Both the position numbers and the translations under genes were made by a program. Shown piece by piece: positions 55,472-63,697 of a stretch of DNA of 64,000 bases. The notes below the pieces were generated by a model. That model was not told the origin of the DNA. It saw nothing but the letters and a program-made list of their open reading frames with translations, and did not search any database. Numbering within the stretch: the first letter of the stretch is position 1; every line of letters starts with the position of its first letter. This DNA is from Planctomycetota bacterium (GTDB taxonomy: Bacteria; Planctomycetota; UBA1135; UBA2386): positions 3,264,001-3,328,000 of the forward strand of contig OZ245838.1 in NCBI GenBank assembly GCA_965228735.1, read 5' to 3'.

Positions 55472-57154
55472 TCAGCGACGTTCGCCGGCGACGAGATCCC
55501 ACCGGTCGCCGGGACTCAGCCAGACGGGTTCGGGCGCGCCGCCGTTGTCCGCGGCGCTCGCCTCGAGGAAACGGCCGCAGAGTCGGCGCCAATCGTAGAT
55601 CGCGATCTTCGACGCGCCGATGACCTCGAGCTCGTGCCCCGCGACGACGGCCGCGGTGCCTTCGTCGACGCCGATCCCGATGAGCTGCGGGTGGGTCTCG
55701 ATGAGGCCGGCGAGGTCACGCATCCGGTTCCGCGCGAGGAAGTGCTGATCCACCGCGCAGCCCGGCAGGAACGCGAAGCCGCGGTCGTAGCCCTCGCACG
55801 CCATGTCGCGATTGCCGAGCGGATTTCCCCGCACGAGGAAATCACCCTGAATCGTCGCGCCGGCGCTGCTGCCACCGATCACCCCGCCGCGCTCGAGCAC
55901 GGCGCGAAAGGCCGGCATCGCGAGGGTATCGGCAAACGCGTCGACGAGCCGCCACTGCCGACCGCCGCCGAACCACACGCCCGTCGCGTCGGCGAGAACA
56001 GTGAGGCGCTCGGGCGTCACTTCGTCGGGGTGCGCACAATCGAGGACCGCGACCTCGGCACCGCGCTTCTCGAACGCACCGCGCAGGTAGAGCCGCCGGT
56101 CACGCGAGCCGCCGCGGCCGCCGCGGGGCGCGGGACTCGCGCTCGGCACGAGCACGATCTTGCCATCAGCGCCGCCGGCGAGCGCGACGAAGCGGTCGAT
56201 CACGGCGGCCGGCAAGCGGCCGCCGCCGGCGAGCATGACGGCACCCGACGGCACGCGCGGCGCTGCCATCGTCGCCGGCGGCCACGCAGCGCCGACGCGC
56301 GCCGCGGCGGCGCGCTGCCAGCTCACGAGGTCCGCGCGTTCACCGGCACTCAACCGCACGATCTTCTCTTCGTGGCCCGCGCCGGCCGGCAACACGAGCG
56401 TCACGTCCGAGGCGCCGAGCACGCGCATCGCGCGCCCCTGCACGACGAGTGCAGTGCCCTCGTCGACGCCGAACCCGAACGCCCCGCGCGTCTGGGCGAG
56501 CGCTCGCCGCAGCCGCGGCAGGCGCTCCCGCGCGCGGAAGTGCTGATCGCCGATCGCGCCAGGGACGAGGTCGAGGCCCTGACCGAGCACCGGCTCGGGG
56601 TTGCCCGACTGGATCATCGTGCGGGTCTGGATCGCCAGGCCAGCCGAGCTGCCGCCGACGACACCGCCGCGGTCGAGCAACGCCATGACCTCGCGTTCGA
56701 AGCGGGTGCCGACGTAGGCCTCGGCGAGCCGGCGCTGCTGCCCGCCACCGAACCAGACCGCGGTCGCGCGGCGGAGCGGAGCGCAGAACTCCTCGTCGTT
56801 CGCGCGCTCGCGATCGCGGGTATGGAGCACGACGAACTCGGCATCGGGCCGACTCTCACGCCACTGGGCGACGAGCCGCGCCTGCGAACTCTCGGAGTCG
56901 GCGCGCGAGCTCGCCGTCGGCACGAGAACCACGACCGCCTCGTCCCCGCCCGCGAGCGCGAAGAACCGCTCGTAGATCGCAGCCGGCAACCGGCCGCCAC
57001 CCGCCAGAATGCGCGCACCCGGCACGCCGGCGGGATCGATCGCGCGAGCCGCACACGTCGGATCGGCGCGCGGCGTGGATGACTGGGCAACGGCAGTCGC
57101 GCTCGCGAACGCAAGACCGAGGCAGGCGACGAGGACGGGCAGGCAACACCTCAC
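55472..57154 (-). CDS. Secreted tandem two-domain cyanophycinase (peptidase S51)
   Basis: Two copies of AGGG / VP[TS]AS / WFGGGxQ / GGSSAG / DQHF / GVDEGTA; signal peptide. Confidence 0.9.
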   Translation of the reverse strand: MRCCLPVLVACLGLAFASATAVAQSSTPRADPTCAARAIDPAGVPGARILAGGGRLPAAIYERFFALAGGDEAVVVLVPTASSRADSESSQARLVAQWRESRPDAEFVVLHTRDRERANDEEFCAPLRRATAVWFGGGQQRRLAEAYVGTRFEREVMALLDRGGVVGGSSAGLAIQTRTMIQSGNPEPVLGQGLDLVPGAIGDQHFRARERLPRLRRALAQTRGAFGFGVDEGTALVVQGRAMRVLGASDVTLVLPAGAGHEEKIVRLSAGERADLVSWQRAAAARVGAAWPPATMAAPRVPSGAVMLAGGGRLPAAVIDRFVALAGGADGKIVLVPSASPAPRGGRGGSRDRRLYLRGAFEKRGAEVAVLDCAHPDEVTPERLTVLADATGVWFGGGRQWRLVDAFADTLAMPAFRAVLERGGVIGGSSAGATIQGDFLVRGNPLGNRDMACEGYDRGFAFLPGCAVDQHFLARNRMRDLAGLIETHPQLIGIGVDEGTAAVVAGHELEVIGASKIAIYDWRRLCGRFLEASAADNGGAPEPVWLSPGDRWDLVAGERR

Positions 57155-57516: not shown

Positions 57517-57873
57517 ATGAAGAAGATCGAAGCCTACGTCAAGCCGTTCCGGCTCGCGGAGATCCGCGACAGGCTCGCAGAACGGCGATTCGACGTCCTG
57601 CGGGTCCACCGCGCCGAAGAAGTGCGCCCCGCGGAAACGTACACGGAGACGGTGCAGGGCGTCGCCTACGAGGTCGACTCGACTCCTCGCGCATTGATCG
57701 TGTTGCTCGTCGAAGAGAAGGACCTCGAGGAAGCCATCCGCCTCATCCAGAGCGTGGGCAAGACCGACCACGCCGGGGACGGTCGCATCGTCGTCACTCA
57801 CGTCGACCTCATCGCCGCGATCAACCCGGACGAGAATCCGGACTCCGAGATCCCGGGACGGCATGTCAACTGA
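57517..57873 (+). CDS. Divergent P-II family protein
   Basis: MKKIEAYVKPFRL, YEVD, KTDHAGDGRIVV. Confidence 0.88.
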   Translation: MKKIEAYVKPFRLAEIRDRLAERRFDVLRVHRAEEVRPAETYTETVQGVAYEVDSTPRALIVLLVEEKDLEEAIRLIQSVGKTDHAGDGRIVVTHVDLIAAINPDENPDSEIPGRHVN

Positions 57874-58402
57874 CGGCCAGTACGTGCTCACCGCCCTCGG
57901 AGCGGCAATGGCCCTGCTGTCGAGCGACGCACGTCCCCAGGGGCAAGGCAACGCCATCGGGACCGTGACCATCGCGGCGCCCGTGTTGGCAGGTCCTGCG
58001 CACGCATCGGCTGACGGCCAGTTCAGCCTGCGCTGGCAGGTCTCGCTCGACGACGTCGAGGATGCGGTCGCAGCCGCAGTCGAGTTCGAACTCGAAGAGC
58101 GCGCCGGCGACGCACGGACGCTGCTCGCCGCCGGCCATCATCTGGCGGCAGCGCTCAGCGGTCGCGACGACGGCGACTACGACTATCGCGTCAGAGCCGT
58201 GCAGACCGGCCACGCGATCAGCCCGTGGAGCGAGCCCGTCACGGTGCAGGTGCGGCATCACCCTCTGGGCTTCGCGCTGCGAATGTTCGCGGTCGGCGCG
58301 GTCGTATTCCTCGCGACTGCCGCGCTCGTGCTCGTCGGGCATCGGCGCGCCCGCCCGAGCGCCCATGCGACCGCCGCCGGCGACGCCGCGACCTCCGCCT
58401 GA
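57863..58402 (+). CDS. Membrane protein with an FN3-like domain
   Basis: FSLRW...FELEE...DGDYDYRVRA...SPWSEPVTV followed by a C-terminal TM helix. Confidence 0.78.
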   Translation: MSTDGQYVLTALGAAMALLSSDARPQGQGNAIGTVTIAAPVLAGPAHASADGQFSLRWQVSLDDVEDAVAAAVEFELEERAGDARTLLAAGHHLAAALSGRDDGDYDYRVRAVQTGHAISPWSEPVTVQVRHHPLGFALRMFAVGAVVFLATAALVLVGHRRARPSAHATAAGDAATSA

Positions 58403-58414
58403 CCTCGAAGCGCC

Positions 58415-59833
58415 ATGAACATCCAGTTCCTCGACCCATGGGTCGCCGGTGGGTTGCTTGCTGCCTTCAGCATTCTGTGGGTGTTCCTCGGCTGGTACTG
58501 GGGGCGCAAGAACAGCGACGTCGACGACTTCATGCTGGCTGGCCGCAAGGTCGGGCTCGCGCTCGGCAGCGCGACGGCGATGGCCACGTGGGTGACCAGC
58601 AACACGACTCTCGTCGCGCCCGAGCTCGCGTTCAACTTCGGCATCTGGGGCATGCTCGGCTACTCGCTCGGATGCGTGGGCCTGCTGCTGTTCGCGCCGA
58701 TGGCGTCCCGCATCAGGCACCTCATGCCCCGCGGATACACGAGCGGCGACTTCGTGCGGCTGCGGTATGGCCGGGCGGCGTGGCGGGTCTTCCTGCTGAT
58801 CTCCGTCGCCTACAGCGGCGCCTGGCTCGTCAGCCTCGGTTCCGCCGGCGGCCTGCTGATCCAGGCGCTCAGCGGCATTCCGTTCCTCGTCGGCGCGACG
58901 GTGATCCTGGTGATCTGCGTGCTCTACACGCTGCTCGGCGGCCTGCGGGCCGTGATCGGCACCGACTTCATCCAGACCATCGTGATCATCTCGGGTGTCG
59001 TACTGGTCGGCGTGATGACGCTGCAGCAGGTCGACCTGCAACAGGTTCATGCCCGCCTCAGCGATGTCCGCCCGCGCCTGCTCGACGCGCTCATGCCGGC
59101 GGCGGTGATGTTCCTCTTCAACAACCTGCTCTTCGGCATCGGTGAGATCTTTCACTCGAACGTCTGGTGGAGCCGCGCGTTCGCGTTCGACCGGGGCGTC
59201 GGGTTCAAGGCCTACCTGACCGCCGGTCTGCTCTGGGCGCCGATCCCGATCGCCGCCGGCTTCATCGCGCTCTCGGCGCCGGCCCTCGATCTCGCCGTGC
59301 CGCGCGCCGACATGGTCGGGCCGCTCGTGGCCGCGAACGTGCTCGGGGTGGGCGGCGCCGTTCTGCTGTTCATCGTGGTCTTCTCGGCGATCGCGTCGAG
59401 CCTCGACTCGCTCCTCGCAGCGACGAGCGACCTCGTCGTCGAAGACATCTACCGGCGCCACCTGCGCCCGAACGCGACTCCCACTCAGCTGCGCCGGGCC
59501 GCGTCGACCACCATCGTCGCGCTCGGCGTGCTGACCTGGGTCATCGTCGCGCTCGACATCTCGACCCTGGCCAAGCTGCTCAACTTCGCCGGTGCGCTCG
59601 TCGCGAGCACGATCTGGCCGATCGCGGCCGGCCTCTACTGGCGTCGAACGAACCCGCTGTCAGCGACGCTGGGGATGGCCCTCGGATCGATCGGCGGCCT
59701 GCTCGCCTACTTCCTCATCGACTGGTACGTCGCGGCCCTGGTCGGCGCCGCGATCTCCATGACGATCGTGCTCGCCCTCACGTTCGTGCGGCCGAGTGAC
59801 TTCGACTGGCGTCGACTGGGAGCCGGATCATGA
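58415..59833 (+). CDS. Sodium:solute symporter (SSS; PutP/DUR3-like)
   Basis: DFMLAGR, YTLLGGLRAVIGTDFIQ, SAIASSLDS; about 13 hydrophobic segments. Confidence 0.93.
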   Translation: MNIQFLDPWVAGGLLAAFSILWVFLGWYWGRKNSDVDDFMLAGRKVGLALGSATAMATWVTSNTTLVAPELAFNFGIWGMLGYSLGCVGLLLFAPMASRIRHLMPRGYTSGDFVRLRYGRAAWRVFLLISVAYSGAWLVSLGSAGGLLIQALSGIPFLVGATVILVICVLYTLLGGLRAVIGTDFIQTIVIISGVVLVGVMTLQQVDLQQVHARLSDVRPRLLDALMPAAVMFLFNNLLFGIGEIFHSNVWWSRAFAFDRGVGFKAYLTAGLLWAPIPIAAGFIALSAPALDLAVPRADMVGPLVAANVLGVGGAVLLFIVVFSAIASSLDSLLAATSDLVVEDIYRRHLRPNATPTQLRRAASTTIVALGVLTWVIVALDISTLAKLLNFAGALVASTIWPIAAGLYWRRTNPLSATLGMALGSIGGLLAYFLIDWYVAALVGAAISMTIVLALTFVRPSDFDWRRLGAGS

Positions 59834-59952
59834 CCGTTCCGCCGTTCGTCCTCGAAGCGTTGGTCTACGCCGCGCTGACCGTGAGCGCGGCCGCGCCGAT
59901 CGTGCTCCTCGCCCTGCTGTTTCGAGACTGGAAGAGAGGCAACCTGTGGTAG
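59830..59952 (+). CDS. 40-aa membrane peptide
   Basis: MTVPPFVLEALVYAALTVSAAAPIVLLALLFRDWKRGNLW*; ATGA overlap with the SSS stop and overlap with the next GTG start; absent from the ORF track. Confidence 0.78.
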   Translation: MTVPPFVLEALVYAALTVSAAAPIVLLALLFRDWKRGNLW

Positions 59953-61034
59953 CCACACCGACCCTGCATCCTCGCCTGCAAGGCCCGATCGACGTGCGCA
60001 GCCCGCACGTCGGACTCGAGCACCCGCGCCGACTGCTCGCGACGGTTCCCGAGAACCCGAGCGCCCTGCTCGCGCTCGCGACCCGTCACATCGTCTCGGC
60101 CCTGCAGTTCGACCGTGAACTCGTGACCCAGCTCTGCCGGCTCGCGGCGAGCATCGAGATGCAGCCGAAGCTGCTCCACCTGCCGCTCACGGGCAAGATC
60201 CTGATCACCGCGTTCCTCGAGCCGAGCACGCGGACGCGGCTGTCGTTCGAGAGTGCGTGGCACCGACTCGGCGGCGACATCCTGTCCATCACCGAGGCGG
60301 CAACGACGGGGATCGCGAAGGGCGAGAGCCTCCGCGACATCGCCGAGATGTTCAGCAACTACGGCGACGCGGTCGTGCTCCGTGACAACAACGAGCACTC
60401 GGTCTACGAGATGCTCGACACGCTGCGGGTTCCGATCATCAACGCCGGCAACGGCATCGACGAGCACCCGACGCAGGCACTGTCCGACATCTACGCGATC
60501 GTGAAGTGGCGCCCGCAGCTCCTGACGGACGAGCCGGGCGACCGACTGCGGATCGGCATCATCGGCAACCCGGCGAAGATGCGGACGGTTCGCAGTTTGC
60601 TGCTCCTGCTGAGCCTCTTCCCGCACGCGATCGACGAAGTCGTGGTCGTCAGCGGCGCCGGCACGGCGGATCCGTTCGATCCCGGCCAGCGCGAACTGCT
60701 CGAGGAACGCGGTCTCCGCCTCAGGGTCGAACGACAGCTCCAACACGTTCTGCAGACCCTCGATGTCGTCTACATCAACTCGATCGCGTGGATCGGCGAC
60801 ACGTTCGAGCGCCTGACGGGCGATCTCCGGCTGACCGCCGGTTCGGCCGTCAAGGACGGCGCGATCATCCTCCATCCGCTCGCCCGCGGCGCGGAGCTCG
60901 ACGTCAGCCTCGATGACACCGAGCACAACTGGTACTTCAGCCAGGCCCGCGGCGCGACCTTCCTCCGCATGGCGCTGCTCACCTGCATGGTCGAGCGCGT
61001 GCATCGCGTCGCCGACGTCGAACCCCCGGCGTAG
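59946..61034 (+). CDS. Aspartate carbamoyltransferase-like protein with altered acceptor site
   Basis: FLEPSTRTRLSF, KGES, LR, NAGNG, EHPTQ, RTVRSL, HPLAR; start (GTG 59946) uncertain. Confidence 0.9.
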   Translation: MVATPTLHPRLQGPIDVRSPHVGLEHPRRLLATVPENPSALLALATRHIVSALQFDRELVTQLCRLAASIEMQPKLLHLPLTGKILITAFLEPSTRTRLSFESAWHRLGGDILSITEAATTGIAKGESLRDIAEMFSNYGDAVVLRDNNEHSVYEMLDTLRVPIINAGNGIDEHPTQALSDIYAIVKWRPQLLTDEPGDRLRIGIIGNPAKMRTVRSLLLLLSLFPHAIDEVVVVSGAGTADPFDPGQRELLEERGLRLRVERQLQHVLQTLDVVYINSIAWIGDTFERLTGDLRLTAGSAVKDGAIILHPLARGAELDVSLDDTEHNWYFSQARGATFLRMALLTCMVERVHRVADVEPPA

Positions 61035-61061: not shown

Positions 61062-63098
61062 ATGTGTGGCATAGCCGGCATCTTCCATCTCGACCGCAAT
61101 CGCCCCGTCGACCCCGCCCTGCTCGCGGGAATGGCGGCGATCCAGCACCACCGCGGGCCCGACGGCTGTGGGCACCACGTCATCGACGATCGGGGCGTGG
61201 GGTTCGCCCACGCCCGGCTGGCGATCATCGATCTCGAAAACTCTGGACAGCAGCCCCTGGTCGCCGGAGGGCAACGCTGGATGCTCACGCACAACGGCGA
61301 GTTCTACGACTACGCCCGGATCCGGGCCGACCTCGCGACCCGCGGCGCCAGGTTCACGACGAAGAGCGACTCCGAGATCGTGCTCCACCTGGCCGAACGC
61401 CGCGGGCTGGAGGGCGCCCTGCCGCACCTGCGCGGCGAGTTCGCGTTCGGGCTCTACGACCGTGAACGGGACGAGCTCACGCTCGTGCGCGACCGCTTCG
61501 GCGTCAAGCCGCTCTACTGGACGCGAACGAGCAACGGCATCGTATTCGGGTCGGAGATCAAGGTGCTCTTCGCGCATCCCGACGTCCGACGGGAGTTCGA
61601 CGACGAAGGTCTGTTCCACCAGTTGATGCAGACCATCGTGCCCGGGTCGACCCCGTTCGCGGGAGTCCACCAGGTCAAGCCGGGACACGCGCTCACGGTC
61701 CGCCGCCAGAACGGCGATCTGCTGATCGAGGACCGCCGCTACTGGGACATGCCGTTCCCCGAGTGGAACGACCGCGGTCCGGACCGCCCGGAACAGGACG
61801 TCATCGAGGAGGTCCGAGCGCGCTTGCTCGAGGCGGTGCAGCTGCGGCTCGTCGCCGACGTGCCGGTCGGATGCTATCTCTCCGGCGGCATCGACTCGTG
61901 CTCGATGCTCGGGCTCGCGGCCGCATGCCGTCAGGACGCGGTCAAGGCGTTCACGATCGGCTTCGACAACAAGGACTACGACGAGACCGAGATCGCGCGG
62001 GAGATGGCTCGGTCGGTCGGTGCGGACCAGGACGTGCTCGCGCTGGACGCTGGCCATCTCTACGACCACTTCGTCGAGACCCACTGGCACACGGAGCGAA
62101 CGATCTACAACACGCTCGGTGTGGCCAAGCTGCTCATGAGCCGGCATGTCCACCGGGCCGGTTACAAGGTCGTGATCACCGGCGAAGGCTCCGACGAACT
62201 CTTCGCCGGCTATCCGTCCTTCCGGAACGACCTGTTCGCGCACGGCCTCGCGCATCTGCCGGCACCCGAACGGGAGGCGATGCAGGAGGCGCTGGGCCGG
62301 TCCAACGCCGTCTTCCGCGGCGCGATGCTGCCCGTCGAGACGCATGACGACCCGGATCTCGAGAGGGTGTGCGGCTTCACCCCGACCTGCCTGCAGCCGT
62401 GGCTCAATGCCTCGCGCCACGTCGCGCCGCTGATCGATGGCGACCGACGGGCGCGGCTGGCGGGCTACAGTCCGGGCGCAGCGATCGCGAACGCCCTGGA
62501 CGAGAGCGCGATGCGCGGCCGTCATCCGCTCGACGTCGCGCAGTACGTCTGGATCAAGACGATGCTCGAAGGCCAGATCCTGACCTGGGGCGGTGACCGC
62601 GTCGACATGGCCAACTCGATGGAGGCACGTCCCGCGTTCCTCGATCACCACCTGGCGGAGTTCGCCGCGACGATCCCGCCGCAGTATCGGATCCGCGGGA
62701 TCACCGAGAAGTGGGTCCTGCGTGAAGCCATGAAGGGCGTGCTGCCGCGCGTGCTCTACGAACGGGAGAAGTTCGCGTTCATGGCACCACCGGCGCACAC
62801 CGACCCCGCGAAGCGCAAGGCGCTCGGCGCCCTGACGAGCCGATACCTGAACTCAGGGTCCATCCGCCACTCCAACCTGCTCGACGAAGGCGGCGTCCGG
62901 GACGTGCTCGACCGCTACGCCGACGACAGCCGACCGCGCGATGAGCTCGTGCAGCTCGATGCCGTCGTCAACCACCTGCTCGGAGTCCAGATCCTGCACG
63001 ACCAGCTCGTCGATCAGGACGTGCCCGCGCTCGCAGCAGCGCGAGCGGACGAGCTCGGCGACGGGGTCGTCGCCGTGGCCGAGCCTGTCGCGCGTTAA
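61062..63098 (+). CDS. asnB: Asparagine synthase-like glutamine-dependent amidotransferase
   Basis: MCGIAG (Ntn Cys), HRGPD, NGE, RDRFGVKPLY, LSGGIDS, GEGSDE. Confidence 0.93.
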   Translation: MCGIAGIFHLDRNRPVDPALLAGMAAIQHHRGPDGCGHHVIDDRGVGFAHARLAIIDLENSGQQPLVAGGQRWMLTHNGEFYDYARIRADLATRGARFTTKSDSEIVLHLAERRGLEGALPHLRGEFAFGLYDRERDELTLVRDRFGVKPLYWTRTSNGIVFGSEIKVLFAHPDVRREFDDEGLFHQLMQTIVPGSTPFAGVHQVKPGHALTVRRQNGDLLIEDRRYWDMPFPEWNDRGPDRPEQDVIEEVRARLLEAVQLRLVADVPVGCYLSGGIDSCSMLGLAAACRQDAVKAFTIGFDNKDYDETEIAREMARSVGADQDVLALDAGHLYDHFVETHWHTERTIYNTLGVAKLLMSRHVHRAGYKVVITGEGSDELFAGYPSFRNDLFAHGLAHLPAPEREAMQEALGRSNAVFRGAMLPVETHDDPDLERVCGFTPTCLQPWLNASRHVAPLIDGDRRARLAGYSPGAAIANALDESAMRGRHPLDVAQYVWIKTMLEGQILTWGGDRVDMANSMEARPAFLDHHLAEFAATIPPQYRIRGITEKWVLREAMKGVLPRVLYEREKFAFMAPPAHTDPAKRKALGALTSRYLNSGSIRHSNLLDEGGVRDVLDRYADDSRPRDELVQLDAVVNHLLGVQILHDQLVDQDVPALAAARADELGDGVVAVAEPVAR

Positions 63099-63568
63099 GG
63101 ACCGTCGGACTCGGCAGCGCGCTGCGGATAGAGCAGCAATGGGATCGAGCTCTTCCGAACGACGCCCTCGGCGACGCTGCCGCCGAACAGACGTTCGAGC
63201 CCGGAGCGGCCGTGCGTCGCCATCGCGATCATGTCGGCGTCGAGCGCCTCGGCCTGCTCGACGATCGTCTCCGCCACATCGAGACCGCGCACCGCCTCGA
63301 TGCCGATGCGCTCGAGCGGCGCGAAGCTGCCACGCAGTTCTTCGAGGCGCCCACGCGCGGTCTTCAGAGCCTCCTCGAGGTCCGGCGCGACCGCCGGCAT
63401 CGCGGGCACGCTCGGGATGCCGGGCGCGACGATGGTGACGGGATCGACAACGACGTGCAGCAGCGTCAGTCGTGCATCCAGAGCAAGCGCCAAGGCTGCT
63501 ACCGGCTCACACATCTGCAACGAGAGATCGGAGAAGTCCGTAGCGGCGACGATGTGAGGTGTGGTCAT
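63095..63568 (-). CDS. Universal stress protein
   Basis: IVAATDFS, LLHVV, MATHGRSGLERLFGGSVAEGVVR. Confidence 0.93.
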   Translation of the reverse strand: MTTPHIVAATDFSDLSLQMCEPVAALALALDARLTLLHVVVDPVTIVAPGIPSVPAMPAVAPDLEEALKTARGRLEELRGSFAPLERIGIEAVRGLDVAETIVEQAEALDADMIAMATHGRSGLERLFGGSVAEGVVRKSSIPLLLYPQRAAESDGP

Positions 63569-63579
63569 CCCCGGCAAAC

Positions 63580-63595
63580 TGCAAGCCGCGTGCCC
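63580..63595 (-). promoter_or_regulatory. Sigma54 -24/-12 promoter
   Basis: Minus strand GGGCAC-GCGGC-TTGCA, 11 nt upstream of the USP ATG. Confidence 0.75.
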
Positions 63596-63697
63596 TGCCC
63601 CGCGAAATCCGATCTCGCTGCAGCGCACGGACGCGGTTCACTCGTGCGATCCCCCAGATGCGGCGAGCACGGGCGAACCCGCGCTCGCGCGGCGACG

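What the first reader, a model, noticed from the sequence alone, without database searches (positions are those of the whole stretch)
59946..61034. ATCase homologue keeps the carbamoyl-phosphate site but loses the aspartate beta-carboxylate residues
Seen: STRT, KGES, LR and HPTQ are intact, as is RTVRSL (equivalent to E. coli R167, which binds the alpha-carboxylate). The 240s-loop motif YMTRVQKE (R229/Q231, which binds the Asp side-chain carboxylate) is replaced by YINSIAWI, and HPLP by HPLA. The OTCase HCLP and SMG motifs are also absent. Inference: a new transcarbamylase specificity for an alpha-amino acid with a neutral or longer side chain.
Basis: partly seen in the sequence, partly recalled or inferred. 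Interest (0 to 1): 0.78.

Follow-up and report, generated by a model that had tools for sequence, protein, structure and literature searches.

The report
Likely glutamine-capping enzyme for salt protectant
This gene encodes an intact relative of the pyrimidine enzyme aspartate transcarbamoylase that has lost its aspartate side-chain grip and sits beside an amide-adding enzyme; together they likely make a capped glutamine known as a salt-protecting solute in one bacterium, but no enzyme or product has been tested.

Summary
Observation confirmed. The 362-aa protein keeps the carbamoyl-phosphate site, K84 and R167, but R229/Q231 become S/A and HPLP becomes HPLA; the genome has a true ATCase elsewhere. 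The family is not new: it matches the marine 'pseudo-ATCase' subgroup of Barba 2013 (PMC4016543), whose substrate was not tested in the sections read, and probably the picocyanobacterial 'pyrB2'. It lies in an operon with a P-II-like protein, an FN3-like membrane protein, a sodium symporter, a 40-aa peptide and an AsnB-type amidotransferase, its near-constant partner. [quoted passage not shown] Best reading (about 0.5): glutamine is carbamoylated, then amidated. Against: Rhodopirellula baltica carries the gene but its NMR solute pool lacks the compound; glutamate, asparagine and a nitrogen-scavenging role remain open. This scan reached the same idea before on other genomes.

The parts
59946..61034 (+). 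pseudo-ATCase (HPLA/SIA clade) carbamoyltransferase, 362 aa
60225..60236 (+). STRT carbamoyl-phosphate motif (S94-T97 = E. coli S52-T55)
60465..60476 (+). HPTQ motif (H174/Q177 = E. coli H134/Q137)
60576..60584 (+). K211-M212-R213; R213 = E. coli R167 (alpha-carboxylate); 211 is Arg/Lys in 94% of 249, role unexplained
60771..60791 (+). YINSIAW: replaces the ATCase R229/Q231 motif; N278 invariant and aligned with OTCase D231
60873..60884 (+). HPLA motif (E. coli HPLP)
61062..63098 (+). AsnB-type glutamine amidotransferase, 678 aa, with N-terminal Cys and SGGIDS loop; own clade, under 35% to E. coli AsnB and to AsnO-type/EPS-type paralogues
58415..59833 (+). sodium:solute symporter (PF00474), 472 aa
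   Evidence: in 64 of 80 related loci
59830..59952 (+). 40-aa membrane peptide overlapping the symporter stop and the carbamoyltransferase start; likely small transporter subunit
   Evidence: detected in 49 of 80 related loci
57863..58402 (+). 179-aa protein with a predicted FN3/Ig-like domain and C-terminal hydrophobic helix, no Pfam family
   Evidence: in 52-54 of 80 related loci depending on query
57517..57873 (+). divergent P-II-like protein, 118 aa, overlapping the next start; only PF00543 match in the genome
   Evidence: same place in two family relatives; a P-II lies directly upstream in 6 of 80 other loci

Best explanation
[quoted passage not shown] Shown: intact carbamoyl-phosphate site and R167 equivalent, family-wide loss of R229/Q231, operon layout, near-fixed pairing with the amidotransferase, presence of the pair in the known producer. 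Inferred: direction (synthesis), order (carbamoylation first, because the alpha-carboxylate Arg is kept), substrate (glutamine), product, and uptake or re-uptake by the symporter. In most other carriers an M20 carbamoylase and a cysteine amidase sit in the cluster and would reverse the two steps; this lineage lacks both orthologues, so it would make and import but not recycle by that route. My odds: not aspartate 0.9; a carbamoyl amino acid amide made with the amidotransferase 0.7; this exact route and product 0.5.
For: (1) Residues. N278 (249 of 249) aligns with OTCase D231; glutamine has four carbons between its two nitrogens, as ornithine does, so an Asn there suits a terminal amide (inference, no docking; role of D231 recalled). 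(2) Partner: amidotransferase in 73 of 80 loci and 60 of 62 with at least 4.5 kb downstream; both exceptions have a 64% or 67% orthologue elsewhere in the genome. In the order of G387 each gene is in 49 of 55 genomes, both in 48, neither in 5; in the window's family 4 and 5 of 91, both in 4; in the Dore 2023 table pyrB2 and asnB are in the same 83 of 256 genomes. (3) Producer: the solute is reported from E. marismortui (PMC1224877, PMC3857566, passages); DSM 4180 is its type strain (PMC7824335 table passage); locus L009 of DSM 4180 reads sucrose synthase(-), MarR, M20, cysteine hydrolase, carbamoyltransferase (63%), amidotransferase (65%). That genome (G387) gives three PF02729 matches: an OTCase, an ATCase and this one; no PF02543 match. 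(4) Hydrolase neighbours fit the reverse steps: M20 over the hydantoinase/carbamoylase cut-off (370 vs 204) in 64 of 80 loci, isochorismatase-family hydrolase in 60 of 80. (5) The transporter is dispensable: not in the 9 Ectothiorhodospira loci nor in the 9 Prochlorococcus genomes with pyrB2; the hydrolases are dispensable too (window and 2 relatives). What is left is the enzyme pair. (6) Carbamate kinase: none in G000, 1 of 80 loci. (7) Analogy: AsnO amidates the terminal carboxylate in NAGGN synthesis under a MarR regulator (PMC8070244 passages); MarR in 41 of 80 loci. (8) Salt link: named carriers are mostly marine or soda-lake taxa; among 29 subcluster 5.2/5.3 genomes pyrB2 is in 12 of 19 marine or brackish and 0 of 10 freshwater (habitat labels recalled, kin not independent); the window's DNA is held by runs labelled coral (share 0.69) and macroalgae (0.43, 0.36) metagenome.
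Against: No enzyme, metabolite or expression data. The solute is reported from one organism only while the genes are in hundreds (512 matching stretches in GTDB). R. baltica carries the gene (RB13301) yet its NMR solute pool is sucrose, glutamate, trehalose and MGG, and 'carbamoyl' does not occur in that paper (PMC3694870); RB13301 is not in the salt, heat or cold lists of PMC2754498 (0 hits in 2 supplement files; only neighbours RB13300 and RB13294 appear as salt-up, ratios 1.4 and 1.25). In picocyanobacteria the cluster marks warm N- and P-depleted water, an odd place for a four-nitrogen osmolyte. E. marismortui also has a stand-alone AsnO-type amidotransferase (985 vs cut-off 570) without Ngg, which could do the 1-amidation instead. 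Arg/Lys 211 is unexplained and could bind a gamma-carboxylate. The neighbour passes the broad asparagine synthase cut-off (424 vs 267). The gene is in 49 of 55 genomes of the producer's order, so presence in the producer is not a rare coincidence. G387 is a draft genome, and carbamoylation by an unrelated enzyme family is not excluded.
Confidence: 0.5

Rival explanations
1. Glutamate is the acceptor: the enzyme makes N-carbamoyl-L-glutamate, and one or two amidotransferases amidate one or both carboxylates, giving the same solute or a mono-amide.
For: Arg/Lys at 211 in 94% of 249; the best named family for the cluster M20 is N-carbamyl-L-glutamate amidohydrolase ErtE (391 bits); a second, AsnO-type amidotransferase exists in E. 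marismortui and T. sibirica.
Against: ErtE score is under its cut-off of 520; the 273-288 loop has no basic residue; no AsnO-type gene over cut-off in 5 of 5 other carriers including G000.
Confidence: 0.15
2. The neighbour is a true asparagine synthetase (or acts on carbamoyl-aspartate) and the enzyme handles asparagine, giving N-carbamoyl-asparagine as a nitrogen store or a side entry to pyrimidines, as Dore et al. proposed for asnB-pyrB2-pydC.
For: TIGR01536 cut-off passed; ATCase fold and R167 kept; an amide side chain also explains loss of R229/Q231; published suggestion and N-depleted niche; an Ntn-hydrolase gene travels with the cluster in picocyanobacteria.
Against: The amidotransferase is about 28% identical to E. 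coli AsnB and carries long family-specific inserts; EPS- and AsnO-type enzymes pass the same cut-off; carriers checked keep a true ATCase; no dihydroorotase was seen among the neighbours scanned (109 ORFs from 17 loci and the window); leaves the producer's solute without a carbamoyltransferase.
Confidence: 0.15
3. The enzyme works catabolically, like the ureidoglycine carbamoyltransferase of Rubrobacter: the symporter imports a ureido compound and phosphorolysis releases carbamoyl phosphate and an amino acid.
For: The only characterised pseudo-ATCase is catabolic; the symporter is annotated ureP/DUR3 in picocyanobacteria; N-depleted niche; P-II-like gene at the head of this operon; carbamoyl phosphate could be used directly without carbamate kinase.
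Against: No carbamate kinase in G000, 1 of 80 loci; the constant partner is an ATP-dependent amidotransferase, not the transporter; an M20 carbamoylase in the same cluster would make phosphorolysis redundant.
Confidence: 0.12
4. It is a second, divergent aspartate carbamoyltransferase.
For: Best sequence and fold matches are all ATCases; databases name it so.
Against: R229/Q231 absent in 249 of 249; under all ATCase cut-offs (180 vs 237 for TIGR00670); separate clade; true ATCase present.
Confidence: 0.03

Closest known systems
Marine 'pseudo-ATCase' subgroup of Barba, Dutoit, Legrain and Labedan 2013 (PMC4016543; parts 2-4 of 7 read, supplements unreadable)
   Same: STRT, HPTQ, HPLA and SIA/AIA motifs (Table 1 row 'pseudo-ATCase 1'); Na+ symporter on one side, amidohydrolase often adjacent; true ATCase elsewhere; clusters with Kangiella and Synechococcus proteins.
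   Different: Nothing of substance: this is a further member. The paper's table row 1 appears to be the text's subgroup 3 (Kangiella and Synechococcus relatives carry HPLA/AIA). The paper calls the neighbour a putative asparaginase; here it is an AsnB-type amidotransferase. No substrate is given there for this subgroup.
asnB-pyrB2-pydC gene cluster of marine picocyanobacteria (Dore et al. 2023, PMC10119275; passages of the preprint and parts 1 and 5 of Dataset 6 read)
   Same: Symporter, small membrane protein, carbamoyltransferase, amidotransferase, carbamoylase in one cluster; locus L103 with Synechococcus-named close relatives has this order.
   Different: Interpreted there as alternative pyrimidine synthesis or nitrogen recycling; carries an Ntn hydrolase instead of the cysteine hydrolase; identity of pyrB2 with this family is inferred from gene order and strain pattern, not from a direct sequence comparison.
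Aspartate carbamoyltransferase catalytic chain (PyrB)
   Same: Fold (Z 36, rmsd 2.1 A), 31-35% identity, carbamoyl-phosphate site, K84, R167.
   Different: R229, Q231, P268, D162 not kept; about 40-residue N-terminal extension; no pyr context.
NAGGN osmolyte system (asnO-ngg with MarR PA3458; PMC8070244, passages read)
   Same: Works like it, if the reading holds: N-capping of glutamine, amidation of the terminal carboxylate by an AsnB-type enzyme, MarR regulator and hydrolase alongside.
   Different: Carbamoyl cap instead of acetyl, no Ngg ligase, amidotransferase under the TIGR03104 cut-off (284 vs 570).
Ureidoglycine carbamoyltransferase Rxyl_2847 (UGTCase)
   Same: ATCase-like paralogue acting on a non-aspartate substrate.
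   Different: Catabolic, beside carbamate kinase and allantoinase; a different subgroup in Barba 2013; its sequence was not compared here.

Membership tests
ATCase (PyrB) | carbamoyl-phosphate residues S52-T55, R105, H134, Q137 and K84 | tested here: met
ATCase (PyrB) | R167 for the alpha-carboxylate | tested here: met
   R213, 248 of 249
ATCase (PyrB) | R229-x-Q231 for the beta-carboxylate | tested here: not met
   S/A and A; no Arg/Lys or Gln in 249
ATCase (PyrB) | HP[LG]P motif and curated HMM cut-off | tested here: not met
   HPLA; TIGR00670 180 vs 237, NF002032 172 vs 263
ATCase (PyrB) | activity on aspartate | not testable with these tools
   needs assay or pyrB complementation
OTCase / PTCase / AOTCase / YgeW | D231, SMG loop, HCLP-type motif; HMM cut-offs | tested here: not met
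   N278, WIG, HPLA; TIGR00658 86 vs 281, TIGR04384 67 vs 500, TIGR03316 30 vs 500, NF003384 29 vs 288
Marine pseudo-ATCase subgroup (Barba 2013) | STRT + HPTQ + HPLA + AIA/AIS/SIA | tested here: met
Marine pseudo-ATCase subgroup (Barba 2013) | Na+ symporter next to the gene; genuine ATCase elsewhere in the genome | tested here: met
Marine pseudo-ATCase subgroup (Barba 2013) | clade with the paper's organisms | tested here: inconclusive
   groups with Kangiella aquimarina (62%, SH 97) and Synechococcus relatives, the same genera, but the paper's own sequences could not be read
UGTCase (purine catabolism) | carbamate kinase beside the gene | tested here: not met
   none in G000 (93% complete); 1 of 80 loci
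NAGGN system | Ngg (TIGR03103) and AsnO (TIGR03104) over cut-off | tested here: not met
N-carbamoyl-glutamine amide pathway (proposed) | carbamoyltransferase plus amidotransferase present in the known producer, with no other spare carbamoyltransferase found | tested here: met
N-carbamoyl-glutamine amide pathway (proposed) | enzymes make the compound; carriers accumulate it under salt | not testable with these tools
   published R. baltica data do not show it

The most novel reading that the evidence does not exclude
Probability: 0.35. Interest if true: 0.75.

Novelty: new member of a known kind. Interest (0 to 1): 0.55.

Why it matters
It names two genes whose test would assign the pathway of an osmolyte described in 1991, for which my searches found no genes, and would give a substrate to a widespread family now annotated as aspartate carbamoyltransferase. 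Because the cluster is in about a third of the picocyanobacterial genomes of one survey (83 of 256), a positive result would add a nitrogen-rich metabolite to marine budgets. The family itself and its gene context are already in print, which limits the surprise.

Tried and rejected
Literature: nine searches. Those aimed at genes for the solute returned 2, 4, 0, 0 and 0 papers; the passages read in three of them assign no genes; the fourth listed (PMC11979133) was seen as a listing only. The library lacks most subscription journals; Galinski and Oren 1991 and Sagot 2010 were not retrieved under the ids tried, and the Barba alignments were unreadable, which bears on subgroup membership. No plasmid match at E 1e-40. 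No RNA holder listed, so expression is untested; no reads were laid. Promoter/terminator scan uninformative. The IQ-TREE run did not finish; the FastTree tree has weak deep branches (59) and midpoint root, so no claim on origin or transfer is made. The M20 gene just outside the window was considered as the recycling enzyme: only 28-34% identical to cluster M20s and not seen near the operon in G310, so not counted as a part. Sucrose synthase (11 of 80), PfkB (12 of 80) and MscS (8 of 80) neighbours were not counted as salt evidence because they come mostly from close kin.

Full report
Observation. Window 59946-61034 (+) is a single 362-aa frame matching both ATCase/OTCase Pfam domains but under every curated carbamoyltransferase cut-off in NCBIfam. 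Aligned with E. coli PyrB and ArgI from NC_000913.3, it keeps S52-T55, K84, R105, H134, Q137, R167 and R296, and has N-S-I-A-W where PyrB has T228-R229-V230-Q231-K232, and HPLA for HPLP. In 249 family proteins (the query, 119 of the 120 hits listed, the 120 listed, and 9 divergent ones) position 279 is never Arg/Lys, 281 never Gln, N278 is invariant and A313 is in 248. The AlphaFold model from a 112-row alignment (query plus 111 of the 120 hits) has pLDDT 91 and the ATCase fold.

It is not the cell's ATCase. The genome has an ATCase with R-A-Q and HPLP, an OTCase and an AOTCase-like gene elsewhere. In a FastTree tree of 134 rows (representatives of 270-480 aa from the 150, plus references) the HPLA proteins form a 36-row clade with SH support 100, apart from the R-x-Q ATCases; deep branches are weak. 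The nearest named homologues (73-76%) are labelled Planctomycetes bacterium, so the host is probably a planctomycete. The gene is patchy there: 2 of 300 other genomes sampled from the phylum and 3 of 90 of the family.

The family is in print. Barba et al. 2013 list a pseudo-ATCase with STRT, HPTQ, HPLA and AIA/AIS/SIA, and describe a marine subgroup (Rhodopirellula RB13301, Nitrosococcus, Synechococcus WH8102, Kangiella) beside a Na+ symporter. Table and text number the subgroups differently; Kangiella and Synechococcus relatives here carry HPLA/AIA, so the HPLA row is the marine group. The enzyme they assayed is from the purine subgroup. Dore et al. 2023 noted asnB-pyrB2-pydC in picocyanobacteria and suggested alternative pyrimidine synthesis or nitrogen recycling.

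Context. The gene is fifth in a run of six same-strand, overlapping or closely spaced genes: P-II-like, FN3-like membrane protein, sodium symporter, 40-aa peptide, carbamoyltransferase, AsnB-type amidotransferase. A GTDB scan with an Ectothiorhodospira orthologue found 512 relatives among 554 candidate stretches and kept the best 80, a set biased to Ectothiorhodospiraceae. In these: amidotransferase 73, symporter 64, M20 carbamoylase 64, isochorismatase-family hydrolase 60, MarR 41. With at least 4.5 kb downstream the amidotransferase is in 60 of 62, and both exceptions have the orthologue elsewhere. Genome-wide the two genes go together: both in 48, neither in 5, one only in 2 of 55 genomes in the order of G387; 4 and 5 of 91 in the window's family; the same 83 of 256 in the Dore table. 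The symporter is missing from the 9 Ectothiorhodospira loci and from the 9 Prochlorococcus genomes with pyrB2; the hydrolases are missing from this operon and those of two relatives, and G000 has no PF00857 match. The core is therefore the enzyme pair.

Mechanism. A carbamoyltransferase with an alpha-carboxylate site plus a glutamine-dependent amidotransferase with intact catalytic motifs would give an N-carbamoyl amino acid amide, and the two hydrolases match its two caps. [quoted passage not shown] Its type strain DSM 4180 carries MarR, M20, cysteine hydrolase, carbamoyltransferase and amidotransferase in one run next to sucrose synthase, and has only three PF02729 genes (OTCase, ATCase, this one) and no PF02543 match. 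The invariant N278 sits at OTCase D231, the residue recalled as binding ornithine's far amino group; glutamine has the same N-to-N spacing. The NAGGN pathway supplies the precedent for alpha-amidation by an AsnB-type enzyme. I noted this idea, before looking at earlier findings; eight earlier notes on other genomes reach a similar reading, which is not independent support. All steps from substrate to product are inferred.

Results against. R. baltica has the gene but NMR showed sucrose, glutamate, trehalose and MGG, and RB13301 is absent from the stress lists. The solute is called minor and was not detected by Raman even in E. marismortui, so it may be easy to miss, but that cuts both ways. 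The picocyanobacterial cluster marks N-depleted water. E. marismortui has a second candidate amidotransferase of AsnO type. Position 211 is basic in 94% of the family. The gene is nearly universal in the producer's order, which weakens the producer argument; the elimination of other carbamoyltransferases in that genome is the stronger part. The salt link (12 of 19 versus 0 of 10) rests on recalled habitat labels and related strains.

Verdict. Real, intact and not an ATCase; a further member of a published but functionally untested family, with a specific and cheaply testable assignment at about even odds. That the solute's genes are unassigned rests in a library without most subscription journals. 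Interest 0.55.

Noticed in passing
P0130, P0134-P0136, P0138-P0140, P0142-P0144, P0146, P0148, P0151, P0158, P0167; loci L093-L095: A 15-row subclade (SH 100) inside the HPLA clade has lost STRT, KGE and HPLA but keeps length, the N-terminal extension and much of the scaffold: likely pseudo-enzymes. The 3 loci seen lie outside the operon in unrelated contexts. Not in G000.
   Followed up: partly
window 57517-57873 (+): The only P-II-family gene found in this 7.2-Mb, 93% complete genome is divergent (27.5 bits, lacks the usual Gly-rich T-loop entry seen in the L067 P-II) and heads this operon; same in L091 and L092; more typical P-II genes precede the operon in 6 loci, five of them Leptospirales/Leptospiraceae. 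Suggests control by nitrogen or energy status.
   Followed up: partly
G000:C1:3328594-3329961 (+), about 600 bases beyond the window end: Hydantoinase/carbamoylase-family M20 gene 1.5 kb after the amidotransferase, over the TIGR01879 cut-off but only 28-34% identical to the cluster M20s; could be a non-orthologous recycling enzyme.
   Followed up: partly
L188:778-2550 (G387) and L187:763-2538 (G388): Stand-alone AsnO-type amidotransferase over the TIGR03104 cut-off with no Ngg in the genome; acceptor unknown.
   Followed up: partly
G000:C1:2704028-2705509 (-): The genome's true ATCase frame continues into a C-terminal Cys-rich stretch resembling the zinc-binding part of a PyrI regulatory chain (resemblance recalled, not tested).
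   Followed up: no
window 55472-57154 (-): Two-domain peptidase S51 (cyanophycinase-like) gene divergent from the operon; not seen among the conserved neighbours.
   Followed up: no
L010 (Thiorhodospira sibirica) and L052: Carbamoyltransferase and amidotransferase are separated (about 700 kb apart in G388, about 10 kb in G390).
   Followed up: yes
PMC4016543 Table 1: Subgroup numbers in the table do not seem to match the text and Figure 5 legend.
   Followed up: partly
window 63095-63628 (-): Universal stress protein gene converging on the amidotransferase with overlapping stops.
   Followed up: no
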